Shown here: piece by piece, positions 21,636 through 28,962 of the stretch
Layout of the letters: each line of letters opens with the position of its first letter
Numbering within the stretch: position 1 is the first letter of the stretch
Source of the DNA: a virus
Taxonomy: Duplodnaviria > Heunggongvirae > Uroviricota > Caudoviricetes
Strand: one strand, 5' to 3'
IMG/VR virus record: IMGVR_UViG_2565956711_000009
Coordinates: 1 to 48,315 of that record
DNA length: 48,315 nt
Position numbers and translations under genes: made by a program
The notes under the pieces: model-generated
Database searches by the model: none
The model's input: the letters and a program-made list of their open reading frames with translations, nothing else
Told to the model about the DNA's origin: nothing

Positions 21636-23039
21636 TCACACCTCGCCTATCGTTCTGGTATCCAGCGAGGAGGATTCAGCCAATAACTCGTCCAGGACCT
21701 TTTCTGGGTCTGCGTCTGCATCAATCAGGTTAAGCTTCTGCAGCGCCTTAATGGCATCGATACGGCGGAGGTCGCCACCCTGGCGAAGTGACTGAATAGC
21801 CAGCGCCGCAGGCGGGTTAAACTCTTTCGACTCGACATCCAGCTCAGTGCGAACATCAACGTTGCCACCATCTTTCTCGCCGATGTACTCAGCCATGATT
21901 TGCAGGATGTTGTCGATCGCATCTTCAAGGCTGGTAGCCATGGTGTAGAGCGGTGACTGCTCCTGCATTTTCTCTTCAGAGGTCTGGTCTACCGATTTGG
22001 TAGAGGTGTTCTCTGTACGCAGCAACTTCGCGCCCGCCTGGCGCATCTGCTCCACAAGTTCTGCCAGCGACTCTTTACCAGCACCGATGGAGGAGCCTGT
22101 ATGCTCGACGTATTCCAGACCCTGCTTTTGCCGATCAGTGAACGACGTAGCTGAAGACGAGCCAATTATCAGCTCTTGCCCCTCTTCCAAACCGAACACC
22201 GTGAGCAACGGCACCCTGGCGACGTGCAGAATGTTGTCCTGCTCGCTCTGGCTCTGCCAGTGCTTGATGTTCAGCAGGGCCATGTTGAGCAGTGGCGGTG
22301 AACCACACATAAACCCGGTGCGTTTGGTGTAGAGCGTGACCAGAGTGATATCCTGGCGGGATGTCTGCCACCCATCGAATAGCGCCCAGGTCGCGGCACC
22401 GTCAGCATCTTTAGCCTTGCGGTAAATTTCCACCTTTCCGGGTGTCAGGTATCGGATTTGCTCGACTTTGGTCTGCCCGAAGTCGTCGCCGTCTTCGACC
22501 ACAACCTCTTTGATACGCAGCGCAGTCAGCACCACTTTTCCGTCCACCATTTTCGACTTCCAGCCAATTACCTGGCGTGGATTAAGCATGGTGACATAGG
22601 GGCGCGCGCCGGTAGCTTTCTCTTCAGCTTTGGTTTTCACCTTTTCGGTGTCCACCCTGGGATAATCCACCAGCGCGTGGGAGAGTCCATACTGCATCGC
22701 CAGACCGAAGAATGCCTGCGCCCATACGTCCAGGCGCGTCCCCTCAAGGTCGAAGTTTTTCGCATACTCTCGCAGCTGATCAGGCACATTCTCGGCAAGC
22801 TTAATGGGCTCGGCGAATACACGCCCGATGTTTTGCTTAATGGTCTCTTCGTAGGCTGGCAGAAGCGTGGCCACGGCGAGGCGTTTTTTGTAATCCTCTT
22901 TGTCTTCCTTGGGCCAGCGAGGGAGATAGGACTCGCCCAGCTGGCGCATATACAGCGTGCCGCCCATCAGGGCATCGTTGATATCCCACGCCTCGACCAT
23001 GTTCCCATAGTCCAGATTTGGGGTTGAAATATCAGGCAT
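21636..23039 (-). CDS. Portal protein
   Basis: About 467 aa from MPDISTPNL; between terminase large subunit and head morphogenesis protein. Confidence 0.8.
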   Translation of the reverse strand: MPDISTPNLDYGNMVEAWDINDALMGGTLYMRQLGESYLPRWPKEDKEDYKKRLAVATLLPAYEETIKQNIGRVFAEPIKLAENVPDQLREYAKNFDLEGTRLDVWAQAFFGLAMQYGLSHALVDYPRVDTEKVKTKAEEKATGARPYVTMLNPRQVIGWKSKMVDGKVVLTALRIKEVVVEDGDDFGQTKVEQIRYLTPGKVEIYRKAKDADGAATWALFDGWQTSRQDITLVTLYTKRTGFMCGSPPLLNMALLNIKHWQSQSEQDNILHVARVPLLTVFGLEEGQELIIGSSSATSFTDRQKQGLEYVEHTGSSIGAGKESLAELVEQMRQAGAKLLRTENTSTKSVDQTSEEKMQEQSPLYTMATSLEDAIDNILQIMAEYIGEKDGGNVDVRTELDVESKEFNPPAALAIQSLRQGGDLRRIDAIKALQKLNLIDADADPEKVLDELLAESSSLDTRTIGEV

Positions 23040-23043
23040 GGGA

Positions 23044-24615
23044 TTAGATCCGTAGGTTGGTGACTTTGCCGACTTTCTTCGGCGGTGAATGCAGGACGGC
23101 ATATCTAGTGCCATCCCAGTCGTGATCTTCCTGCTGAGTGTCTACGTCATCAGGGTTCTTACTGTCGCGAACGAGCACCGGAACACGGCTTATCCAGCCG
23201 CGGCAATAGTCGAAGACGTAGAATGCTGGTTTCTCAGGTACACCAGATTCCAGCTTCTTACCCTCAATGACGGCCTCCAGCATGTCAGCAAAGAGGGCCG
23301 CTCCGTTTACGCGCGATCCCGGTTTCTTGTTGGATGGAACCCACTTAACGCCCTGCGATTCCATCTTCTGGGCAATAGAGAGCTCGTCATCGCCAGTGTT
23401 GTAGATGGCACCGTCAGCTGGGCCCGGCACAACCTTTTTGCAGATACCGGGCATGATGTTCAGTTGCCCCTGAGTTATCCCATTGAGTTTTATCTCTTCA
23501 GGTTCAGGCAGCTCTTCGCCCATCAGCCGCTTATCAATCCAGGCCACACCCTTGGCGACGTTTGTCGAGCTCATATTGAGCCCTTTGTTCAGCTCGTCAG
23601 GTGGACAGCCATACCACTCGCCAATCAGGATCAGCGACCCGGCAGGCGGGCAGAACTGGCGACCATCAGGCAGTTCTGCGGCAGTACCGTCGGCTCGCGC
23701 CCACCAGAGGTTAGAGAACGGCTTCGACTCACCCCAGTCATGGGAACGGTCAACCGTCCAGCTATCCGGGATGCGGAACGGCTTAATGACGTGCAGCGAT
23801 GCATTCCACAGGTGGTCAAAGCGCCCACCGCTGGTGACATCCCAGGAGCCCTCTACCCAAGCTTTGCGGCGGTTCGGGTCTTTGATGGCCATCAGCGTTG
23901 CGATGTACTGGGGATCCAGATACGGGTTCTCTTTGAACGAGCCGTGAATAGCCACGCGCGTCAGCGTCACATCCTCTTCGCGCTCAGTTTGCGGGTTAAA
24001 CACCTGCTGCGTTTCACGAATGATGGTGCCGCGGGGCGCTGGCTCGATGAAGCGTTTCTTCACCCAGGTGTGGCCGATGCCAAACGGGTTAGTGGTGCTG
24101 AACGTCTCCAGGGGAATAGGCTTAAGTAACGAACCGTCACCCAGCGGGTAATTCTCAGGCCGGAACGAGGAGCGCCGGCAAGAGAACATCATCTCGTAGA
24201 ATTCAGGGGACTGCTGCTTGGTCAGCTCGTTAAAGCCGATGAACGGAAACTCCTGGCCGTGATAGTCCCAGTAGTCACCCTCTTCTTTCCCGAAGCGGAA
24301 CAGCAGCTCCTCTCCAGTCGGCCACACCCAGCGCAGTTCAGATGCTGACGCCAGATAGCGTGCGCCGTCGTTAAACAGGCGATACATGCGCTTTGACTGG
24401 GTAATGATATCGGTGAGGTTCTTATACTCGGTATCGAAAATGACACCGCGCCAGAACGAACCATAGCCCAGACCAACCAGACGACGAAAGCGCGCCAGCT
24501 GCGCGGCAGTTTTACCCGGCCCGCGCGTGCCCTCGTAGAGAATTTCGTTACATGGACAGCTCAGGGAGAGCGATTGCGATCCCGGCAAGGGTTTCCAGAC
24601 GGCTTTGTAATTCAT
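23044..24615 (-). CDS. Terminase large subunit
   Basis: Walker A GTRGPGKT; ATGA overlap with small subunit stop; start taken at MNYKAVW. Confidence 0.85.
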   Translation of the reverse strand: MNYKAVWKPLPGSQSLSLSCPCNEILYEGTRGPGKTAAQLARFRRLVGLGYGSFWRGVIFDTEYKNLTDIITQSKRMYRLFNDGARYLASASELRWVWPTGEELLFRFGKEEGDYWDYHGQEFPFIGFNELTKQQSPEFYEMMFSCRRSSFRPENYPLGDGSLLKPIPLETFSTTNPFGIGHTWVKKRFIEPAPRGTIIRETQQVFNPQTEREEDVTLTRVAIHGSFKENPYLDPQYIATLMAIKDPNRRKAWVEGSWDVTSGGRFDHLWNASLHVIKPFRIPDSWTVDRSHDWGESKPFSNLWWARADGTAAELPDGRQFCPPAGSLILIGEWYGCPPDELNKGLNMSSTNVAKGVAWIDKRLMGEELPEPEEIKLNGITQGQLNIMPGICKKVVPGPADGAIYNTGDDELSIAQKMESQGVKWVPSNKKPGSRVNGAALFADMLEAVIEGKKLESGVPEKPAFYVFDYCRGWISRVPVLVRDSKNPDDVDTQQEDHDWDGTRYAVLHSPPKKVGKVTNLRI

Positions 24616-25100
24616 CCACCAAGAACCTCGCTCTGCTGCTTCTGCGCTGCTGCTTCCCACTCATTCACGTTATCGCAGGATGGGACCGGCATAACGTTAT
24701 GAGTGGCAACCACTGTTTGCTCTACTTTTTGTTTGTTCGTGTAAGCATCGCCAACTTCCTTGGCCGCCTGCTCCATCAGGGCGGCAGTAAGGGCCATGTT
24801 TTTCATTCCCTCTGCTTTCGTAGCCATCCTGTCGAGTACACGCAGCCGATATGCCTTATTGGCGATCGGGATATCGGAAATTTCATTCTGGAAGCGTTCG
24901 CGAGTTGCGTTGAAAAGTTCGACCCACTTTTTTGCGAGCGTCTTACCGCTGGCCTTCGTAGGGTCGTGAGATTCGGCCTGTTGTCGGGTTATATTGATCC
25001 CGAATTCTTTTTGGACAGCCTCGACCACCTGCGATGGCGTGTCATAACACGCAAGCGACTGAATGATGAAGGCTTTCACATCAGGTTTTAATGCAGCCAT
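24612..25100 (-). CDS. Terminase small subunit
   Basis: 162 aa upstream of and coupled to large subunit. Confidence 0.7.
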   Translation of the reverse strand: MAALKPDVKAFIIQSLACYDTPSQVVEAVQKEFGINITRQQAESHDPTKASGKTLAKKWVELFNATRERFQNEISDIPIANKAYRLRVLDRMATKAEGMKNMALTAALMEQAAKEVGDAYTNKQKVEQTVVATHNVMPVPSCDNVNEWEAAAQKQQSEVLGG

Positions 25101-25131
25101 AAATCACCATTCGTCTTATACAGTCCAGTAT

Positions 25132-25770
25132 TTAAGCCAGTTTCAGCATGCACGTCCCGCATGCTCTGGCGATGTTAAGTTTTGCCACCTCTGCAGGTTG
25201 ATTGGCTGCGTCCACCAGCTCTTGCACGTCAGTGCTCGCCCCGTATCGACGTACTACACCGACAAACTCTTCGACATCGTGGCCGCGCAATGTGAGAACT
25301 GGCTGCCCGGTCTCTTTGTTGAACTTAGGTGCGCCGAAATCATCGGTGGCCTGGGCAATGTGGTAAAGCTCATGCTCTACCAGGGCGCAGAATTCAAGGT
25401 CGCTGCATTGTGAGCAGTAGTCGGCTGCCAGCGTGATGATGAACTTCGGGATGCGTCCGAACCATTCATACATCTGCTGTTCCATTCTGGCTTTCTGCCA
25501 ACCACCTGCGCGGAGCATTACCTGTTCGGCCTGTCCGAGAACGTAGCGCCCTTTCTTCGCGAATGAGTCAGAAGCCCACATAAAACACAAATCAGCTTCC
25601 ATTAAATGGGCGTGGTCTGGGTTATGGATGCTTCCGCTATCGCTGAGGATTTGATGGCTTATCCAGTCATGCACTTCATTGGCGGGAATCAATCTGGTGT
25701 AGGGCTGCCAGTTATCAGGGCCAATGAAATTAACTGGTGGAAGTGGCCTGCGCTCGTCTTCGTTCACCAT
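25132..25770 (-). CDS. HExxH-motif protein, putative zinc metallopeptidase
   Basis: 212 aa; motif LVEHELYHIAQ. Confidence 0.5.
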   Translation of the reverse strand: MVNEDERRPLPPVNFIGPDNWQPYTRLIPANEVHDWISHQILSDSGSIHNPDHAHLMEADLCFMWASDSFAKKGRYVLGQAEQVMLRAGGWQKARMEQQMYEWFGRIPKFIITLAADYCSQCSDLEFCALVEHELYHIAQATDDFGAPKFNKETGQPVLTLRGHDVEEFVGVVRRYGASTDVQELVDAANQPAEVAKLNIARACGTCMLKLA

Positions 25771-25773
25771 GAG

Positions 25774-26160
25774 TTAATCCTGTTTTATATACGGCAAAAA
25801 TGCCGAAAACATTCTGTCGAGCAGATAGCAGTAGGTTTCGTTTGCGTCTTCCGGCTTGGTCGTTACGCCCACATCAGAGCAGACGTAAAAACATACGTGA
25901 GCGCATTCGTGAACGAGAGTTGATATCTGCTGATCGAATACTCCAATCAGGTAAACTCGCTCTCCCGTATCGGTGTTTTCATAGTTGTTTGCCAGTCCAC
26001 AGTTGAATGGCCTTTCCTCTCCGCTACCACCAAGGAATTTATCAGCGTGCTGAAACTGTTCTCTGGTTGTTGCGAGGTAGACATGCGCACTTTGAAACAG
26101 CGGAATGGTGAATGCCGGAAGTCTGTGCCATTTGGCTTTTGCCATTTGTTGCTCCGTCAT
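25774..26160 (-). CDS. HExxH-motif protein, putative zinc metallopeptidase-like
   Basis: 128 aa; motif TLVHECAHVCFY. Confidence 0.45.
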   Translation of the reverse strand: MTEQQMAKAKWHRLPAFTIPLFQSAHVYLATTREQFQHADKFLGGSGEERPFNCGLANNYENTDTGERVYLIGVFDQQISTLVHECAHVCFYVCSDVGVTTKPEDANETYCYLLDRMFSAFLPYIKQD

Positions 26161-26244
26161 TATCCGTTGCAGGGGTTATTTTTGATTTATCCGCTCAGGG
26201 GGATATCCATTATCAAGCCCACCAGCAGGTGAGCTTTGGAATGG

Positions 26245-26445
26245 CTACTGGCGGTCATTATGCTCGTAACGAGATACCGTCTTCCCGTTCTGGTTCATCA
26301 CGTAGGCGACCTCGCCAGGTTTCAGGAATACATTTTTGTCCATTCCCGATACCGCGATGCTCTGCTGCCCCGGATTGAACCCTACACTCAACCCGCAATG
26401 AATCTCTTCACCGCCACCTGGCGACATTACTTTTACTGTTAACAT
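26245..26445 (-). CDS. Small hypothetical protein
   Basis: 66 aa; GGAGAAGAAGC RBS; follows lysis terminator. Confidence 0.45.
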   Translation of the reverse strand: MLTVKVMSPGGGEEIHCGLSVGFNPGQQSIAVSGMDKNVFLKPGEVAYVMNQNGKTVSRYEHNDRQ

Positions 26446-26471
26446 GCTTCTTCTCCTGCTTCTTCTGGGAA

Positions 26472-26497
26472 TAAAAAAGCCCGACCGAAGTCAGGCT
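26472..26497 (-). terminator. Rho-independent terminator after lysis cassette
   Basis: Minus strand AGCCUGAC-UUCG-GUCGGGCU followed by T6. Confidence 0.75.
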
Positions 26498-26516
26498 CTG
26501 TTATTTGGGTGACGAA

Positions 26517-26981
26517 TCACTTAAGACACTGCTCTTTGATGTAGTCCTGCATGCCGCGAATCATTTTGTCAGCGGTTGCGATTCCGTCCCGGTGATCGAA
26601 ATAATTCCGTCGAGCGTCTGGAGTAAGTTCGGGGGCTCCTGCATCATCCACGCCGGTGGAGGAGGTGGCTTTTGGCACTCCAGGGCAGGTTGCGGCGATG
26701 CGCAGCCGTTTAGCGCCAGAATCGACATCACGACGCAAATCGTTAATGGTCTTTTTCGCATCGGACAATTCCTTCGTGTATTTGGCATCCAGTGCAGCGA
26801 CATCACGCTGGCGGGTCTGCATATCTTTGATGGTGGCATTAGCCAGGCGGAGGTTCTTTGTGGCTTTATCGCGCTGGTCTTTGTAGGTGATGGCGTTGTC
26901 GCGGTAGTGGTTAATGGCCCAGGCCATGGAAACCAGCAGGCAGATAACGACAGCGCAGATGATTGCGGTTAATCGGCTCAT
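26517..26981 (-). CDS. Rz: i-spanin Rz
   Basis: N-terminal TM helix [20 protein letters not shown] then coiled coil; embedded Rz1. Confidence 0.8.
26561..26761 (-). CDS. Rz1: o-spanin Rz1 (lipoprotein embedded in Rz, +1 frame)
   Basis: [20 protein letters not shown] lipobox then Pro-rich PPPPP segment. Confidence 0.75.
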
Positions 26982-27472
26982 TTCTGGCCCCACTCGCAGA
27001 CTTCACGCTCAATCTCGCGCCGGGTGATCAGCCCCTTCCACTGCTTGCCGCCAGCATAAGTCCAGCGCTGCAGTTCTTTACACGCACCCGGAACATCACC
27101 GGAGTTCAGCTTCTTCAGCAGCGTCGAGCTGGCAAAAGCACCAGAGCCAACGTTATAGGTGAAGGAGTAAAGCGCGGCGCGGGTTGGCTCAGGGATGCGA
27201 ACCTTGATCAGCGGGTCGATGGCGCTTGCCACCTTTCGCAGATCTGCCTTAAGCAGGTTGTCACACTCTTTGTCGGTATATCGGTGACCGCGGCGAATGT
27301 CGGTACCAGTGTGCCCATCGCAAACGGTCCAGACGCCGACCACATCCTGATAGGCGTAATAACGCCGACCTTCGAGTCCATCCGCATTGCCCAGCATTAC
27401 TGCAGCAATAGTGATTGCCCCTGATCCGCCAACAATGGCACCCACCAGCTTATTCCTCAACGTTGGGTTCAT
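26978..27472 (-). CDS. R: SAR endolysin (T4-type lysozyme, GH24)
   Basis: N-terminal weakly hydrophobic Gly/Ala-rich SAR segment [19 protein letters not shown]; phage-21-type lysis cassette. Confidence 0.8.
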
Positions 27473-27674
27473 CTCGGCTCCTGCTGCGGCGGTTGTCTTC
27501 GCGGATTTTGAAATAGAGATTTGTCAGATACGTCATTACGGCAATGATGATACCCACCAGCACGCCGATAGCGTTCCACTGCTCGGGGCTGTAGGCATTC
27601 AACATGCCGTTTAGGATGCTCCCGGCTGAAGCGCCATAGGCAGCACCAGTGGTTAGTTTGTCCATGCGATACAT
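27450..27674 (-). CDS. S: Class II holin (S21-like pinholin) with dual-start motif
   Basis: [19 protein letters not shown]...[15 protein letters not shown] resembles recalled S21 MKSMDKISTGIAYGTSAGS...[12 protein letters not shown]; Met1 and Met4 separated by Arg. Confidence 0.85.
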
Positions 27675-27710
27675 ACTCTCACCTCGCTTTGTGCGAGTGC
27701 TGTTGCTAGG

Positions 27711-27737
27711 AATAAAAAAGGCCGCCGAACGGCAGCC
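27711..27737 (-). terminator. tR'-like terminator just upstream of lysis genes
   Basis: Minus strand AGGCUGCCG-uu-CGGCGGCCU followed by UUUUUU, 37 nt before holin start. Confidence 0.7.
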
Positions 27738-27935
27738 TTGTATTGATTGATAGTTTCCGGAGCTTCTTTCTCGCTAGGAAAGCAAAAAATTAAACAATCC
27801 TTAAGAATAGCCAGTTGATGCAAAAAATAATTAGCTTTTCAAATAGTTTTTAGCTGTTACCATTTCCACTAAGTTATGGCTTTACCTCTTTGTGGATAAA
27901 AGAAAGACAAGCGGGTATGAGATTGAGTCGTTATT

Positions 27936-27970
27936 GCGGAGAGGGGTGATGTCGTTCTCCGCGTTTTTTT
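27936..27970 (+). terminator. Plus-strand terminator-like hairpin antisense to the late leader
   Basis: GCGGAGAG-loop-CTCCGC followed by GTTTTTTT; no + strand ORF upstream. Confidence 0.45.
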
Positions 27971-27996
27971 GGCTCGAAGCGATTTAGGCCACAAAG

Positions 27997-28030
27997 AAAT
28001 AAAAAAAGCCCAAGGCGTTAACCTCGGGCT
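27997..28030 (-). terminator. Terminator-like hairpin downstream of Q
   Basis: Minus strand AGCCCGAGG-uuaacg-CCUUGGGCU followed by T7. Confidence 0.6.
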
Positions 28031-28152
28031 TGAATTTTTTTGGCTTCGGAACGACTGAACGGATTCCCAGCGTTAGAGATGAATCTATCCAGTTTTTCCG
28101 CGAAATGCAATACCTATTTCCTATATATTTTCAACATTAGGGAAAATTATTT

Positions 28153-28962
28153 TCATCTCGTTACTTTTGAGAGAATGGAATCAGCCATAGACTCCTGTTT
28201 ATGGCATTCGGCGACCAACTCCTCAAATAGCGGCTGAAGTTGCTCATATGCCGCCGTTTTCTTTATCTCCGCAACAGTATTAACGCCCTCAATTACCGTT
28301 GAGAACTTAAGCCTGGCGTAACCTCTACCACCGCAGCGGTCGCAGGCTTTCATTACTGGAACGCCCTGGCGATCGCTTTCTGCCTTGTCCAGCACCTTAC
28401 CTTTGCCATGGCAGCGACACGAATTGCTGATAACGCCTTTTCCGTTACACGGCTTGCACTTAACTCGCACCACCTCACGCGCCTGTGTCCAGCTCTCCCA
28501 GTCGCTTGGGCGAACGGCACGCGACATTTTCGACCAGTAAGGCGGTTTCCCCCATGGGTATGAGACCTTGTTGGTAAACACTTGCGCCTCTGTAAATCCG
28601 CCACCATCACAGCAATCACATTTTCGAGTGCTGGCAGCACTTCTTGAATAATCCTGGTATGCAAAAGCGCAGAGAACCTTAAGCACGCCTGACCGAGCTG
28701 ATTCATCGAGTTCAGACAGTGCTCTGAATTTACCTGATAACTTACGTGCCTGCTCATAGAGTCTCTCCAGTGCTATATCTGGGCTGCTAATGCCGATTTT
28801 CGAGAGGTAAAGATCGAAACCAAACCCGCACTTGTGGCCAGCAAGGCCAAGCGCCGCCATAACGTCAGTGCCGGTGAGACTGTCTGATGCGGTTGCGCGA
28901 GGAGAGTCACTGAACATCGGTGATTTAGGCGCAAAGTATTTAGCGATTGATTCGAGGTTCAT
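28153..28962 (-). CDS. Q: Late antiterminator Q (phage-82 type)
   Basis: MNLESIAKYFAPKSPMFSDSPRATASDSLTGTDVMAA... matches recalled Q82 N-terminus; Cys-rich zinc motifs. Confidence 0.85.
   Translation of the reverse strand: MNLESIAKYFAPKSPMFSDSPRATASDSLTGTDVMAALGLAGHKCGFGFDLYLSKIGISSPDIALERLYEQARKLSGKFRALSELDESARSGVLKVLCAFAYQDYSRSAASTRKCDCCDGGGFTEAQVFTNKVSYPWGKPPYWSKMSRAVRPSDWESWTQAREVVRVKCKPCNGKGVISNSCRCHGKGKVLDKAESDRQGVPVMKACDRCGGRGYARLKFSTVIEGVNTVAEIKKTAAYEQLQPLFEELVAECHKQESMADSILSKVTR

What the first reader, a model, noticed from the sequence alone, without database searches (positions are those of the whole stretch)
25132..26160. Two adjacent HExxH-motif proteins between the lysis cassette and terminase
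Consecutive ORFs of 128 aa (LVHECAHVCFY) and 212 aa (LVEHELYHIAQ) each carry a zinc-metallopeptidase-type HExxH motif. They sit between the Rz terminator and the terminase small subunit, a known moron slot, together with a 66-aa ORF. Function is unknown; candidates include processing peptidases, anti-defence or toxin-like enzymes.
Basis: seen in the sequence. Interest (0 to 1): 0.4.

Follow-up and report, generated by a model that had tools for sequence, protein, structure and literature searches.

The report
Two unrelated small phage zinc-protease-like genes
Two neighbouring late genes of a lambda-like prophage each encode a small, conserved, zinc-protease-like protein of untested function. 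They are not a pair: one always travels with a particular small terminase gene, and the other is an optional accessory gene related to P22/HK620 hkcC.

Summary
Two adjacent minus-strand genes, 25132-25770 (212 aa) and 25774-26160 (128 aa, probably 123 aa from M6), carry two of the only three HExxH motifs in the six-frame translation of the window.

**The motifs are functional.**
- p212 is a clear member of Pfam PF18894 (147 bits). H133, E134, H137, H164 and D165 are invariant down to 27% identity, and dN/dS is about 0.07.
- p128 has no Pfam family. It is homologous to P22/HK620 hkcC and ST64T Orf-129. H84, E85, H88 and E108 are the only invariant columns among 116 distant relatives.
- The confident p128 model has a small protease-like layout and matches phage proteins named SprT-like or PolyVal metallopeptidase.

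**The "conserved pair in a moron slot" reading fails.**
- The two families are not detectably related (hhalign probability 5.5%).
- They co-occur in only 2-8 of 80 loci per sample.
- p212 lies directly upstream of a DUF2280-type small terminase in 157 of 160 sampled loci, whatever the large terminase. All 80 sampled DUF2280 loci have it upstream.
- Phage-database counts match genus by genus, except Salinibacter phages.

p128 is a patchy, low-GC accessory gene. Substrates and activities are unknown. Both are ordinary members of known kinds, and the terminase linkage is a modest new lead.

The parts
25132..25770 (-). p212: PF18894 putative phage metallopeptidase, long subfamily linked to the small terminase
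   Evidence: Pfam PF18894, E=5.3e-43, 146.8 bits against a cut-off of 23.7. PHROG 513, labelled 'transposase', E=5e-101. 3664 homologues. dN/dS about 0.07.
25360..25374 (-). p212 HExxH (H133 E134 L Y H137)
   Evidence: Invariant in 73 sequences down to 27% identity and in 152 of 152 unique long-form sequences.
25276..25281 (-). p212 H164-D165 in the GHDVEEF motif, the candidate third zinc ligand
   Evidence: H164 and D165 are invariant in alignment A6. The ligand role is inferred. Minigluzincins use His as third ligand (my knowledge of Lopez-Pelegrin et al. 2013). HHpred links a homologue to 4JIU.
25405..25416 (-). p212 C119-x-x-C122
   Evidence: Conserved in 150 and 151 of 152 long-form sequences and absent from short forms. 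A structural zinc site or a cysteine switch is inferred.
25150..25161 (-). p212 C-terminal C204-G-T-C207
   Evidence: Conserved in 152 of 152 long-form sequences. The tail is missing in short forms.
25774..26160 (-). p128: hkcC/Orf-129 family small zincin-like protein, probable true start at 26145 (123 aa)
   Evidence: PHROG 1365, E=1.8e-36. No Pfam family. 669 clusters at 50% identity. 56% identical to ST64T Orf-129 and 34% to HK620 HkcC. AlphaFold2 pLDDT 86.9.
25897..25911 (-). p128 HExxH (H84 E85 C A H88)
   Evidence: Invariant in 116 representatives of 25-51% identity. Lies on predicted helix 79-96.
25837..25839 (-). p128 E108 (N-E-T-Y-C-Y), the candidate third zinc ligand
   Evidence: The only other invariant column. 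It is the first residue of predicted helix 108-125, 20 residues after H88. The ligand role is inferred.
26245..26445 (-). p66: small ORF of unknown function, optional
   Evidence: PHROG 3909, E=8e-37, no Pfam. Present in only 8 of 81 loci scanned that carry p128.
26476..26499 (-). Intrinsic-terminator-like hairpin after Rz
   Evidence: 10-pair stem followed by a T run. p66, p128, p212 and the terminase genes lie downstream of it. Read-through by the Q-like antiterminator is inferred.
24612..25100 (-). DUF2280 protein, presumed small terminase and constant partner of p212
   Evidence: PF10045, E=2.5e-51. Weak match to the PHROG 5334 small terminase family. Overlaps the large terminase gene by 49 nt. 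Annotated as terminase small subunit in Burkholderia phages.
23044..24660 (-). Large terminase subunit (context)
   Evidence: Annotated 'terminase' in the 95.7%-identical E. coli prophage.

Best explanation
These are two independent genes of the late operon. Each encodes a small cytoplasmic enzyme built like a minimal zinc metalloprotease (the minigluzincin / Wss1-SprT-like kind). Their adjacency here is a product of phage mosaicism.

**p212**
- It is a PF18894 protein. H133 and H137 with H164 would hold the catalytic zinc, and E134 would act as the general base.
- The long subfamily also has five conserved cysteines (C119, C122, C128, C204, C207). These probably form a second zinc site or a cysteine switch.
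- The gene forms a fixed two-gene cassette with the DUF2280-type small terminase in phages of Proteobacteria.
- I infer that it acts at or just before DNA packaging, most likely as a protease working on a protein bound to phage DNA or to the terminase. It is not lysogenic-conversion cargo.

**p128**
- It belongs to the hkcC/Orf-129 family, a minimal HExxH...E enzyme.
- The gene moves among temperate enterobacterial phages as an optional late gene.
- I infer that it cleaves some host or phage protein late in infection.

**Shown:** family membership, invariant residues, purifying selection, synteny and the lack of pairing.

**Inferred:** zinc binding, proteolysis, timing and substrates.
For: **Motifs and folds**
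- Motif rarity.
- p212 is PF18894. H133, E134, H137, H164 and D165 are invariant to 27% identity. Cysteines are conserved in 150-152 of 152 long forms. dN/dS is 0.07.
- Published HHpred of a homologue about 51% identical hits proabylysin 4JIU with probability 93.7 (PMC12860723 Table S7).
- Wss1 and Spartan are classed as minigluzincins with a cysteine switch (PMC4559962 abstract).
- p128: only H84, E85, H88 and E108 are invariant in 116 representatives. Model pLDDT is 86.9 with a small protease-like layout.
- p128 has 29 BFVD matches at E<=1e-3, including proteins named SprT-like and PolyVal metallopeptidase, plus IrrE and metalloprotease just above that.
- Its profile gives a weak hit to myroilysin and astacins over residues 4-111, E=0.007.

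**Synteny**
- A DUF2280 gene lies directly downstream of p212 in 79/80 viral loci and 78/80 species-representative genomes. The three exceptions are a contig or record end or a truncated gene.
- p212 lies directly upstream in 80/80 DUF2280 loci.
- The order is the same in ZF40, PAShipCat1 and an Acinetobacter phage at 47-71% identity.
- Genus counts for p212 versus DUF2280 in the phage database are identical or nearly so: Acinetobacter 62/62, Pseudomonas 44/44, Vibrio 8/8, Burkholderia 7/7.
- The large terminase matches the window's in only 7 of 80 loci, so the link is to the small terminase.

**Lack of pairing**
-, and hhalign probability 5.5%.
- No promoter-like site on the minus strand in 24500-28200.
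Against: - No activity, zinc content or substrate has been measured for any member of either family. Literature searches found only annotation-level mentions.
- My own structure prediction of p212 failed (pLDDT 43.7).
- My sequence and profile searches of the PDB found no protease for p212. The fold claim for p212 therefore rests on Pfam, the motif pattern and one published HHpred hit.
- Foldseek of the p128 model against the PDB gave nothing significant. Spartan 6mdx appeared only at E=0.94.
- SprT-like Pfam scores for p128 are below threshold.
- A DUF2280 terminase works without PF18894 in 181 Salinibacter phage records, so p212 is not intrinsically required.
- Alleles of p212 and the small terminase N-terminal domain reshuffle. 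Pairs of p212 at >=95% identity have small terminase N-domains of 59-100% identity. This argues against a tight, allele-specific protein contact.
- Short-form PF18894 genes are not adjacent to a terminase. They lie 1.5-4.3 kb upstream, or have none within 5 kb.
Confidence: 0.6

Rival explanations
1. The two HExxH proteins form one functional unit, such as a protease with its regulator or substrate-adaptor, or a two-enzyme anti-defence or toxin module carried together.
For: The genes are 3 nt apart on the same strand and in the same operon. Both have protease-like motifs. Ten of 5426 complete E. coli genomes carry the whole block at about 96% identity.
Against: - A p128 relative accompanies p212 in 4/80, 2/80 and 8/80 loci.
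- p128 has at least ten different kinds of downstream neighbour.
- In several loci p212 is 99% identical while p128 is only 60% identical, so the two recombine independently.
- In E. coli most matches cover only the p212 and small terminase half.
- The families are not detectably related.
Confidence: 0.05
2. Both genes are morons or accessory cargo (anti-defence, superinfection exclusion or virulence-type enzymes) with no role in virion production. The link between p212 and the small terminase is only positional.
For: - p128 is patchy, has low G+C (46.8% against 52.4%), and has homologues in the P22/HK620 'ant moron' next to sieA.
- A published paper lists the PF18894 gene among accessory genes.
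- Salinibacter DUF2280 phages lack PF18894, so it could serve a need specific to proteobacterial hosts, such as countering a host or satellite factor.
Against: - For p212: near 1:1 co-occurrence and fixed adjacency with DUF2280 across Enterobacterales, Pseudomonas, Acinetobacter, Burkholderia and Vibrio phages.
- No promoter-like site on its strand and no terminator after it.
- Genome-like G+C and very slow protein evolution. These features are unlike typical cargo.
Confidence: 0.25
3. The p212 and small terminase linkage reflects a cis-acting element, such as the pac site or a recombination-module boundary in or near the 3' end of p212. It would not reflect cooperation between the proteins.
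For: - A mosaic junction falls inside the small terminase gene. Residues 1-129 are conserved while the C-terminal part changes with the large terminase type.
- In other pac phages such as SPP1 and P22 the pac site lies in or just upstream of the small terminase gene (my knowledge).
Against: - Small terminase N-domain alleles reshuffle freely against nearly identical p212 alleles. This is not expected if the DNA-binding domain had to match a site inside p212.
- A cis site would not keep a whole 212-codon gene under dN/dS of 0.07.
- It would also not keep gene order down to 47% protein identity.
Confidence: 0.1
4. One or both proteins are metal-dependent enzymes that are not proteases, for example a nuclease of the YbeY type or an HExxH-type hydroxylase.
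For: - p128 has a sub-threshold match to TIGR04267, an aKG-HExxH peptide hydroxylase (E=0.0067, 16.4 bits against a cut-off of 40).
- The terminase context of p212, often beside an HNH endonuclease in Acinetobacter phages, would suit a DNA-acting enzyme.
- No proteolysis has ever been shown for either family.
Against: - The TIGR04267 match covers only the motif region.
- The named structural neighbours of p128 are all peptidase families.
- PDB profile hits for p128 are astacin-type proteases.
- The HHpred hit for the p212 family is a peptidase.
Confidence: 0.1

Closest known systems
Pfam PF18894 PhageMetallopep (putative phage metallopeptidase), PHROG 513
   Same: p212 matches the full-length model far above threshold. 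All 73 aligned relatives do too.
   Different: The family itself is uncharacterised. PHROG 513 and several GenBank and RefSeq records call it 'transposase', for which I found no support. The window's protein belongs to a long subfamily with an extra N-terminal segment, five conserved cysteines and a fixed DUF2280 neighbour. Short forms lack these.
Minigluzincins (proabylysin 4JIU, projannalysin) and the Wss1/Spartan/SprT group
   Same: These are small soluble HExxH enzymes of about 100-200 residues whose third zinc ligand lies on the helix after the active-site helix. p212 has an invariant His there (H164) and p128 a Glu (E108). HHpred probability is 93.7 for a p212 homologue. The p128 model matches phage proteins named SprT-like. 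Wss1 has a cysteine switch and is activated by DNA. p212 has conserved cysteines and a DNA-packaging context.
   Different: There is no significant sequence or Foldseek match to any solved member in my searches. p128 scores 13.6 bits against the 25.6 cut-off for Pfam SprT-like. No DNA dependence or repair role is shown.
P22/HK620 hkcC and ST64T Orf-129
   Same: p128 is homologous to them: 34% and 56% identity over about 96% of its length, with the same HExxH and NETYCY motifs. ST64T Orf-129 sits in the same slot between the lysis and terminase genes.
   Different: hkcC sits in the immI 'ant moron' between gene 16 and the tailspike gene, not next to the terminase. The literature lists it only as a gene of unknown function.
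HK97 gp74-type HNH endonucleases that assist terminases (Kala et al. 2014, from memory)
   Same: A small metal-binding enzyme gene fixed next to the terminase genes, independent of the rest of the head module. This is analogous to p212 with DUF2280.
   Different: A different fold and motif (HNH rather than HExxH). In Acinetobacter phages an HNH gene and the PF18894 gene are both present, side by side. No evidence shows that p212 touches DNA or the terminase.
ImmA/IrrE repressor-cleaving metalloproteases
   Same: Small phage- or element-encoded HExxH proteases. One BFVD neighbour of the p128 model is named IrrE (E=2.6e-3, TM 0.35).
   Different: No Pfam match. ImmA/IrrE genes sit beside their repressor gene, whereas these lie in the late operon between the lysis and packaging genes.

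Membership tests
Pfam PF18894 (PhageMetallopep) | Score above the curated gathering threshold over the whole model | tested here: met
   p212: 146.8 bits against 23.7, model positions 2-134 of 134. p128: no match.
Pfam PF18894 (PhageMetallopep) | Conserved HExxH in the family core | tested here: met
   H133, E134 and H137 are invariant in 73 sequences to 27% identity, together with H164 and D165.
Zincin / gluzincin-type metallopeptidase (clan MA) | HExxH on an alpha-helix preceded by a beta-sheet, with the third zinc ligand on a following helix | tested here: met
   Met for p128 only. AlphaFold2 pLDDT is 86.9, with strands 16-18, 26-30, 55-61 and 68-74, helix 79-96 carrying H84, E85 and H88, and helix 108-125 starting at invariant E108. 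For p212 the model was unusable (pLDDT 43.7), so this is inconclusive for p212.
Zincin / gluzincin-type metallopeptidase (clan MA) | Zinc binding and peptide-bond hydrolysis | not testable with these tools
   No experimental data were found for either family.
Minigluzincins (proabylysin/projannalysin; Wss1/Spartan) | Detectable similarity to a solved member | tested here: inconclusive
   My PDB sequence, profile and Foldseek searches found none (Spartan 6mdx at E=0.94 for p128). A published HHpred run on a homologue about 51% identical to p212 gives 4JIU at probability 93.7.
Minigluzincins (proabylysin/projannalysin; Wss1/Spartan) | Histidine, not glutamate, as third zinc ligand | tested here: inconclusive
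   p212 has invariant H164 27 residues after H137, which is compatible. p128 has invariant E108 instead, which is classical gluzincin-like. The ligand roles are not verified.
Pfam PF10263 SprT-like | Score above the gathering threshold | tested here: not met
   p128: 13.6 bits against 25.6, motif region only. 4 of 116 relatives match at E<=0.01. p212: no match.
ImmA/IrrE repressor proteases | Family HMM match and a neighbouring repressor gene | tested here: not met
   No Pfam match. The neighbours are lysis and terminase genes.
Moron (autonomous cargo gene with its own promoter and terminator, patchy distribution, atypical composition) | Own promoter and terminator, variable presence, deviant G+C | tested here: not met
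   For p212: no promoter-like site on the minus strand in 24500-28200 and no terminator after it. G+C is 53.2% against 52.4% for the genome. The position is fixed. For p128 the test is inconclusive: patchy presence and 46.8% G+C, but no promoter of its own was detected.
Conserved two-gene system of p128 plus p212 | Co-occurrence of the two genes across relatives | tested here: not met
   4/80, 2/80 and 8/80 loci with p212 or the small terminase carry p128. 19 of 80 p128 loci carry p212 directly downstream.
PF18894-DUF2280 cassette (proposed here) | DUF2280 gene immediately downstream, on the same strand | tested here: met
   In the window the gap is 31 nt. 79/80, 78/80 and 80/80 in three samples. 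Confirmed in three annotated phages.

The most novel reading that the evidence does not exclude
The long form of PF18894 may be a dedicated accessory enzyme of DUF2280-type terminases in phages of Proteobacteria. It would be a DNA- or terminase-associated protease, possibly regulated by a cysteine switch. It would clear or process a protein at the start of genome packaging, or defeat a host or satellite factor that targets the small terminase. That would make it a protease counterpart of the HNH partners of HK97-like terminases.
Probability: 0.2. Interest if true: 0.65.

Novelty: new member of a known kind. Interest (0 to 1): 0.33.

Why it matters
Taken alone, these are two more uncharacterised small phage enzymes.

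**What this analysis adds**
- It separates them. One is optional cargo of the hkcC family, which is present even in P22 but has never been assigned a fold. The other belongs to a two-gene cassette with a widespread but unstudied class of small terminase.
- It corrects a 'transposase' label that is spreading through databases.

**If the cassette reflects a real partnership**
- It would point to a proteolytic step in packaging initiation, or to a counter-measure protecting the terminase.
- It could be tested in tractable phages such as JBD44 or ZF40.

Tried and rejected
**Searches and models that led nowhere**
- AlphaFold2 of p212 with 45 sequences of 73-95% identity failed (pLDDT 43.7). Foldseek on that model gave meaningless hits. 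No further prediction jobs were available to retry with the more diverse alignment A6.
- PDB sequence and profile searches found nothing for p212.
- For p128 they gave only weak astacin/myroilysin hits.
- Foldseek of the good p128 model against the PDB found nothing below E=0.25.
- NCBIfam and PADLOC gave no meaningful matches, so neither protein is a known defence-system component.

**Ideas considered and rejected**
- That the two proteins are distant paralogues. hhalign probability is 5.5% and only the motif helix aligns.
- A universal Cys4 zinc ribbon in PF18894. The cysteines are confined to the long subfamily.
- That PF18894 is required by every DUF2280 terminase. Salinibacter phages have a membrane protein upstream instead.
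- Allele-level co-variation between p212 and the small terminase N-domain. The overall r of 0.54 reflects host clades. Within near-identical p212 the small terminase varies from 59 to 100% identity.

**Literature**
- Searches on PF18894, DUF2280, hkcC, HExxH with terminase, and SprT-like with anti-defence found no functional study.
Full report
**1. Observation**

The window carries a lambdoid late region on the minus strand. Its genes, in order:
- a Q-like antiterminator (28153-28962)
- holin (27450-27674)
- lysozyme (26978-27472)
- Rz (26517-26993)
- a 66-aa ORF, p66 (26245-26445)
- the 128-aa ORF, p128 (25774-26160)
- the 212-aa ORF, p212 (25132-25770)
- a DUF2280 protein (24612-25100) that overlaps the large terminase gene by 49 nt
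- the large terminase (23044-24660)
- the portal (21636-23114)

A 95.7%-identical block lies in an E. coli prophage with the same order and a P22-type head module.

The quoted motifs are present. LVHECAHVCFY has its motif codons at 25897-25911, and LVEHELYHIAQ at 25360-25374. The six-frame translation of the whole window (96,626 residues) holds only three HExxH motifs. Two of them are these, and the third is in no ORF of 130 aa or more.

p128 probably starts at its sixth codon (ATG at 26145). A GGAG lies six bases upstream of it. Most homologues are 123 aa and start MAK.KW, and PGAP aa in the E. coli copy.

A terminator-like hairpin follows Rz at 26499-26476. No sigma-70-like site was found on the minus strand between 24500 and 28200. 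The three small genes and the terminase genes therefore appear to be read from the late promoter. That reading is an inference.

**2. p212**

It matches Pfam PF18894 ('putative phage metallopeptidase') end to end, with E=5e-43 and 146.8 bits against a cut-off of 23.7. It also matches PHROG 513, whose label 'transposase' has no support that I could find. The word-indexed protein search found 3664 relatives.

I built a deliberately diverse alignment of 73 sequences reaching 27% identity. It includes a short subfamily recovered with the Bordetella phage PHB04 protein. The invariant columns are L130, H133, E134, H137, H164, D165, F169 and G177. The pattern is therefore HExxH, then 26 residues, then HD within GHDVEEF.

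The long subfamily, to which the window's protein belongs, keeps additional residues in 150-152 of 152 unique sequences. These are C119, C122, C128, C204, C207, H53 and H55. Short forms lack them.

Against 65 relatives, dN/dS is about 0.07 at dS of about 0.9. This is a protein under strong constraint.

My structure prediction failed because the permitted alignment was shallow (pLDDT 43.7). PDB sequence and profile searches were empty.

A published supplementary table reports HHpred probability 93.7 between a Burkholderia phage homologue and proabylysin (4JIU), a minigluzincin (PMC12860723 Table S7). That homologue is 51% identical over the tblastn match. Minigluzincins use His as third zinc ligand (my recollection of Lopez-Pelegrin et al. 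2013), which fits H164. Wss1 and Spartan are classed with minigluzincins, and Wss1 has a cysteine switch (PMC4559962 abstract).

**3. p128**

It has no Pfam, NCBIfam or PADLOC family. Its SprT-like score is 13.6 bits, below the 25.6 cut-off. It belongs to PHROG 1365.

A full HMMER scan with a family profile found 669 clusters at 50% identity. Nearly all are stand-alone proteins of 105-160 aa. In 116 of these, at 25-51% identity to p128, the only invariant columns are H84, E85, H88 and E108.

The AlphaFold2 model is confident (pLDDT 86.9, pTM 0.81). It shows two strands, a helix, two strands, then helix 79-96 carrying HExxH, then helix 108-125 starting at E108. This is the layout of a minimal gluzincin. 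The 20-residue spacing from the second His to the Glu equals that of thermolysin (H146 to E166, from memory).

Foldseek found nothing significant in the PDB. It found 29 matches at E<=1e-3 among predicted viral structures. Most are unnamed, and the named ones at or just above that E-value are 'SprT-like', 'PolyVal metallopeptidase', 'IrrE' and 'metalloprotease'.

The family profile gives weak PDB hits only to zinc endopeptidases: myroilysin at E=0.007 over residues 4-111, and BMP1/tolloid.

Known homologues are ST64T Orf-129 (56%, in the same slot between lysis and terminase) and HK620 HkcC (34%). There is also an intact ORF in P22 between sieA and orf59a that the RefSeq record does not annotate. 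The P22-group literature lists hkcC as a gene of unknown function in the 'ant moron' (PMC2629481).

**4. The two genes are not a pair**

Profile-profile comparison of the two families gives 5.5% probability, with only the motif helix aligned.

Distribution of p128 homologues across the loci scanned:

| Sample | Loci with a p128 homologue |
|---|---|
| 80 viral loci holding p212 | 4 |
| 80 species-representative genome loci holding p212 | 2 |
| 80 loci fetched through the small terminase | 8 |

Conversely, of 80 viral loci holding p128, 19 have p212 as the next gene. The rest have at least ten other kinds of neighbour, including other small terminase types and small ORFs.

In several loci p212 is 99% identical to the window's copy while p128 is only 60% identical. 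Of the 67 E. coli genomes with a match, 10 carry the whole block, and most of the rest match only the half holding p212 and the small terminase.

p128 has 46.8% G+C against 52.4% for the window, while p212 has 53.2%.

**5. p212 is tied to the DUF2280 small terminase**

- A DUF2280 gene follows p212 directly in 79 of 80 viral loci. The exception ends at the end of the linear record.
- It does so in 78 of 80 genome loci. The exceptions are a 684-bp contig and a truncated gene.
- All 80 loci fetched through the small terminase have p212 directly upstream. These were close relatives, at 79% identity or more.
- The same order holds at 47-71% p212 identity in Pectobacterium phage ZF40, Pseudomonas phage PAShipCat1 and an Acinetobacter phage.
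- In the GenBank phage collection the genus counts for p212 and for the DUF2280 N-domain match closely: Acinetobacter 62/62, Pseudomonas 44/44, Vibrio 8/8, Burkholderia 7/7, Klebsiella 8/9, and 2/2 for Salmonella, Pectobacterium, Cronobacter and Rhizobium.
- Only 7 of 80 loci share the window's large terminase. In most loci only residues 1-129 of the small terminase are conserved. The link is therefore to the small terminase N-terminal domain, not to the head type.

Limits to this link:
- 181 Salinibacter phage records have DUF2280 but no PF18894. The upstream gene there encodes a hydrophobic, probably membrane, protein.
- Short-form PF18894 genes lie 1.5-4.3 kb upstream of GpA-type large terminases, or in one case nowhere near one.
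- Alleles reshuffle. Pairs of p212 at >=95% identity go with small terminase N-domains of 59-100% identity, median 74%.

That DUF2280 is the small terminase is itself inferred. The grounds are its position, a weak match to the PHROG 5334 small terminase family, and annotation in two Burkholderia phages.

**6. Interpretation**

Both proteins are best read as small cytoplasmic zinc hydrolases of the minigluzincin / Wss1-SprT-like kind, from two separate families.

p212 is part of the packaging-gene block of a large group of proteobacterial temperate phages. I infer a role at or just before packaging. A protease acting on a DNA- or terminase-bound protein is the most economical guess, given the SprT/Wss1 analogy and the conserved cysteines. 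The Salinibacter exception and the allele shuffling leave room for a role specific to proteobacterial hosts instead, such as a counter-measure.

p128 is optional late-operon cargo whose substrate is unknown.

None of this has been tested experimentally. I found no functional study of either family.

**7. Verdict**

The metallopeptidase-type context is supported: firmly for p128's fold, and by family, motif and a published HHpred hit for p212. The reading of a conserved pair in a moron slot is not supported.

Both genes are new members of known kinds, and the interest is modest. The PF18894-DUF2280 cassette is the one lead worth an experiment.

Noticed in passing
L162 3001-3378 (+), which is NC_002371.2 13849-14226 (Salmonella phage P22): An intact 125-codon ORF (GTG start) homologous to HK620 hkcC and to p128, with HECAH and NETYCY motifs. 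It lies between sieA and orf59a but has no CDS feature in the P22 RefSeq record. Other P22-like records and the literature do name hkcC.
   Followed up: partly
window 24612-25100 (-), and loci L082-L161 and L249-L328: A mosaic junction falls inside the small terminase gene. Residues 1-129 (the DUF2280 part) are conserved at 63-100% identity across loci. The C-terminal 30 or so residues, the large terminase and the portal are replaced by unrelated types in most loci.
   Followed up: partly
PHROG 513, and records JQ177065 (ZF40 gp39), NC_024365, NC_018279, NC_031098, NC_047861, PP067092: PF18894 proteins are annotated 'transposase' or 'putative transposase' in PHROGs and in several GenBank and RefSeq phage records. 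Nothing in the sequence analysis supports a transposase, so this looks like a propagated mis-annotation.
   Followed up: partly
L335 (Salinibacter phage 1_25, OR896199.1 20464-27823): 181 Salinibacter ruber phage records encode a DUF2280 protein (38% identical) directly upstream of the likely large terminase but have no PF18894 gene. The gene upstream encodes a 172-aa hydrophobic protein.
   Followed up: yes
window 28031-28006, 27739-27718 and 26499-26476 (minus strand): Three strong intrinsic-terminator-like hairpins lie in the late operon: after the Q-like gene, before the holin and after Rz. This is consistent with transcription that depends on antitermination.
   Followed up: no
window 26245-26445 (-): The 66-aa ORF (PHROG 3909, no Pfam) is also optional: it occurs in 8 of 81 loci scanned that carry p128. 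Its DNA is 91% identical to a segment of Escherichia phage Fraca, and short pieces match ECP1, SaltyDalty and Aeromonas phage AsXd-1. Function unknown.
   Followed up: no
window 26561-26839 (-): An ORF embedded in Rz in another frame contains a lipobox-like LALNGC followed by a proline-rich stretch, as expected of an Rz1 spanin subunit that starts at an internal Met.
   Followed up: no
L167 3062-4139 (Acinetobacter phage Ab105-2phi), and several Acinetobacter and Burkholderia records: In Acinetobacter and some Burkholderia phages an HNH endonuclease gene sits immediately upstream of, and overlaps, the PF18894 gene. The order is HNH, PF18894, DUF2280, large terminase.
   Followed up: no
L207 (Citrobacter sp. 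Cu233, NZ_JAOWIF010000043.1): A p212 copy 97% identical but truncated after residue 157, with no DUF2280 gene downstream. This is probably a decayed or rearranged prophage.
   Followed up: no
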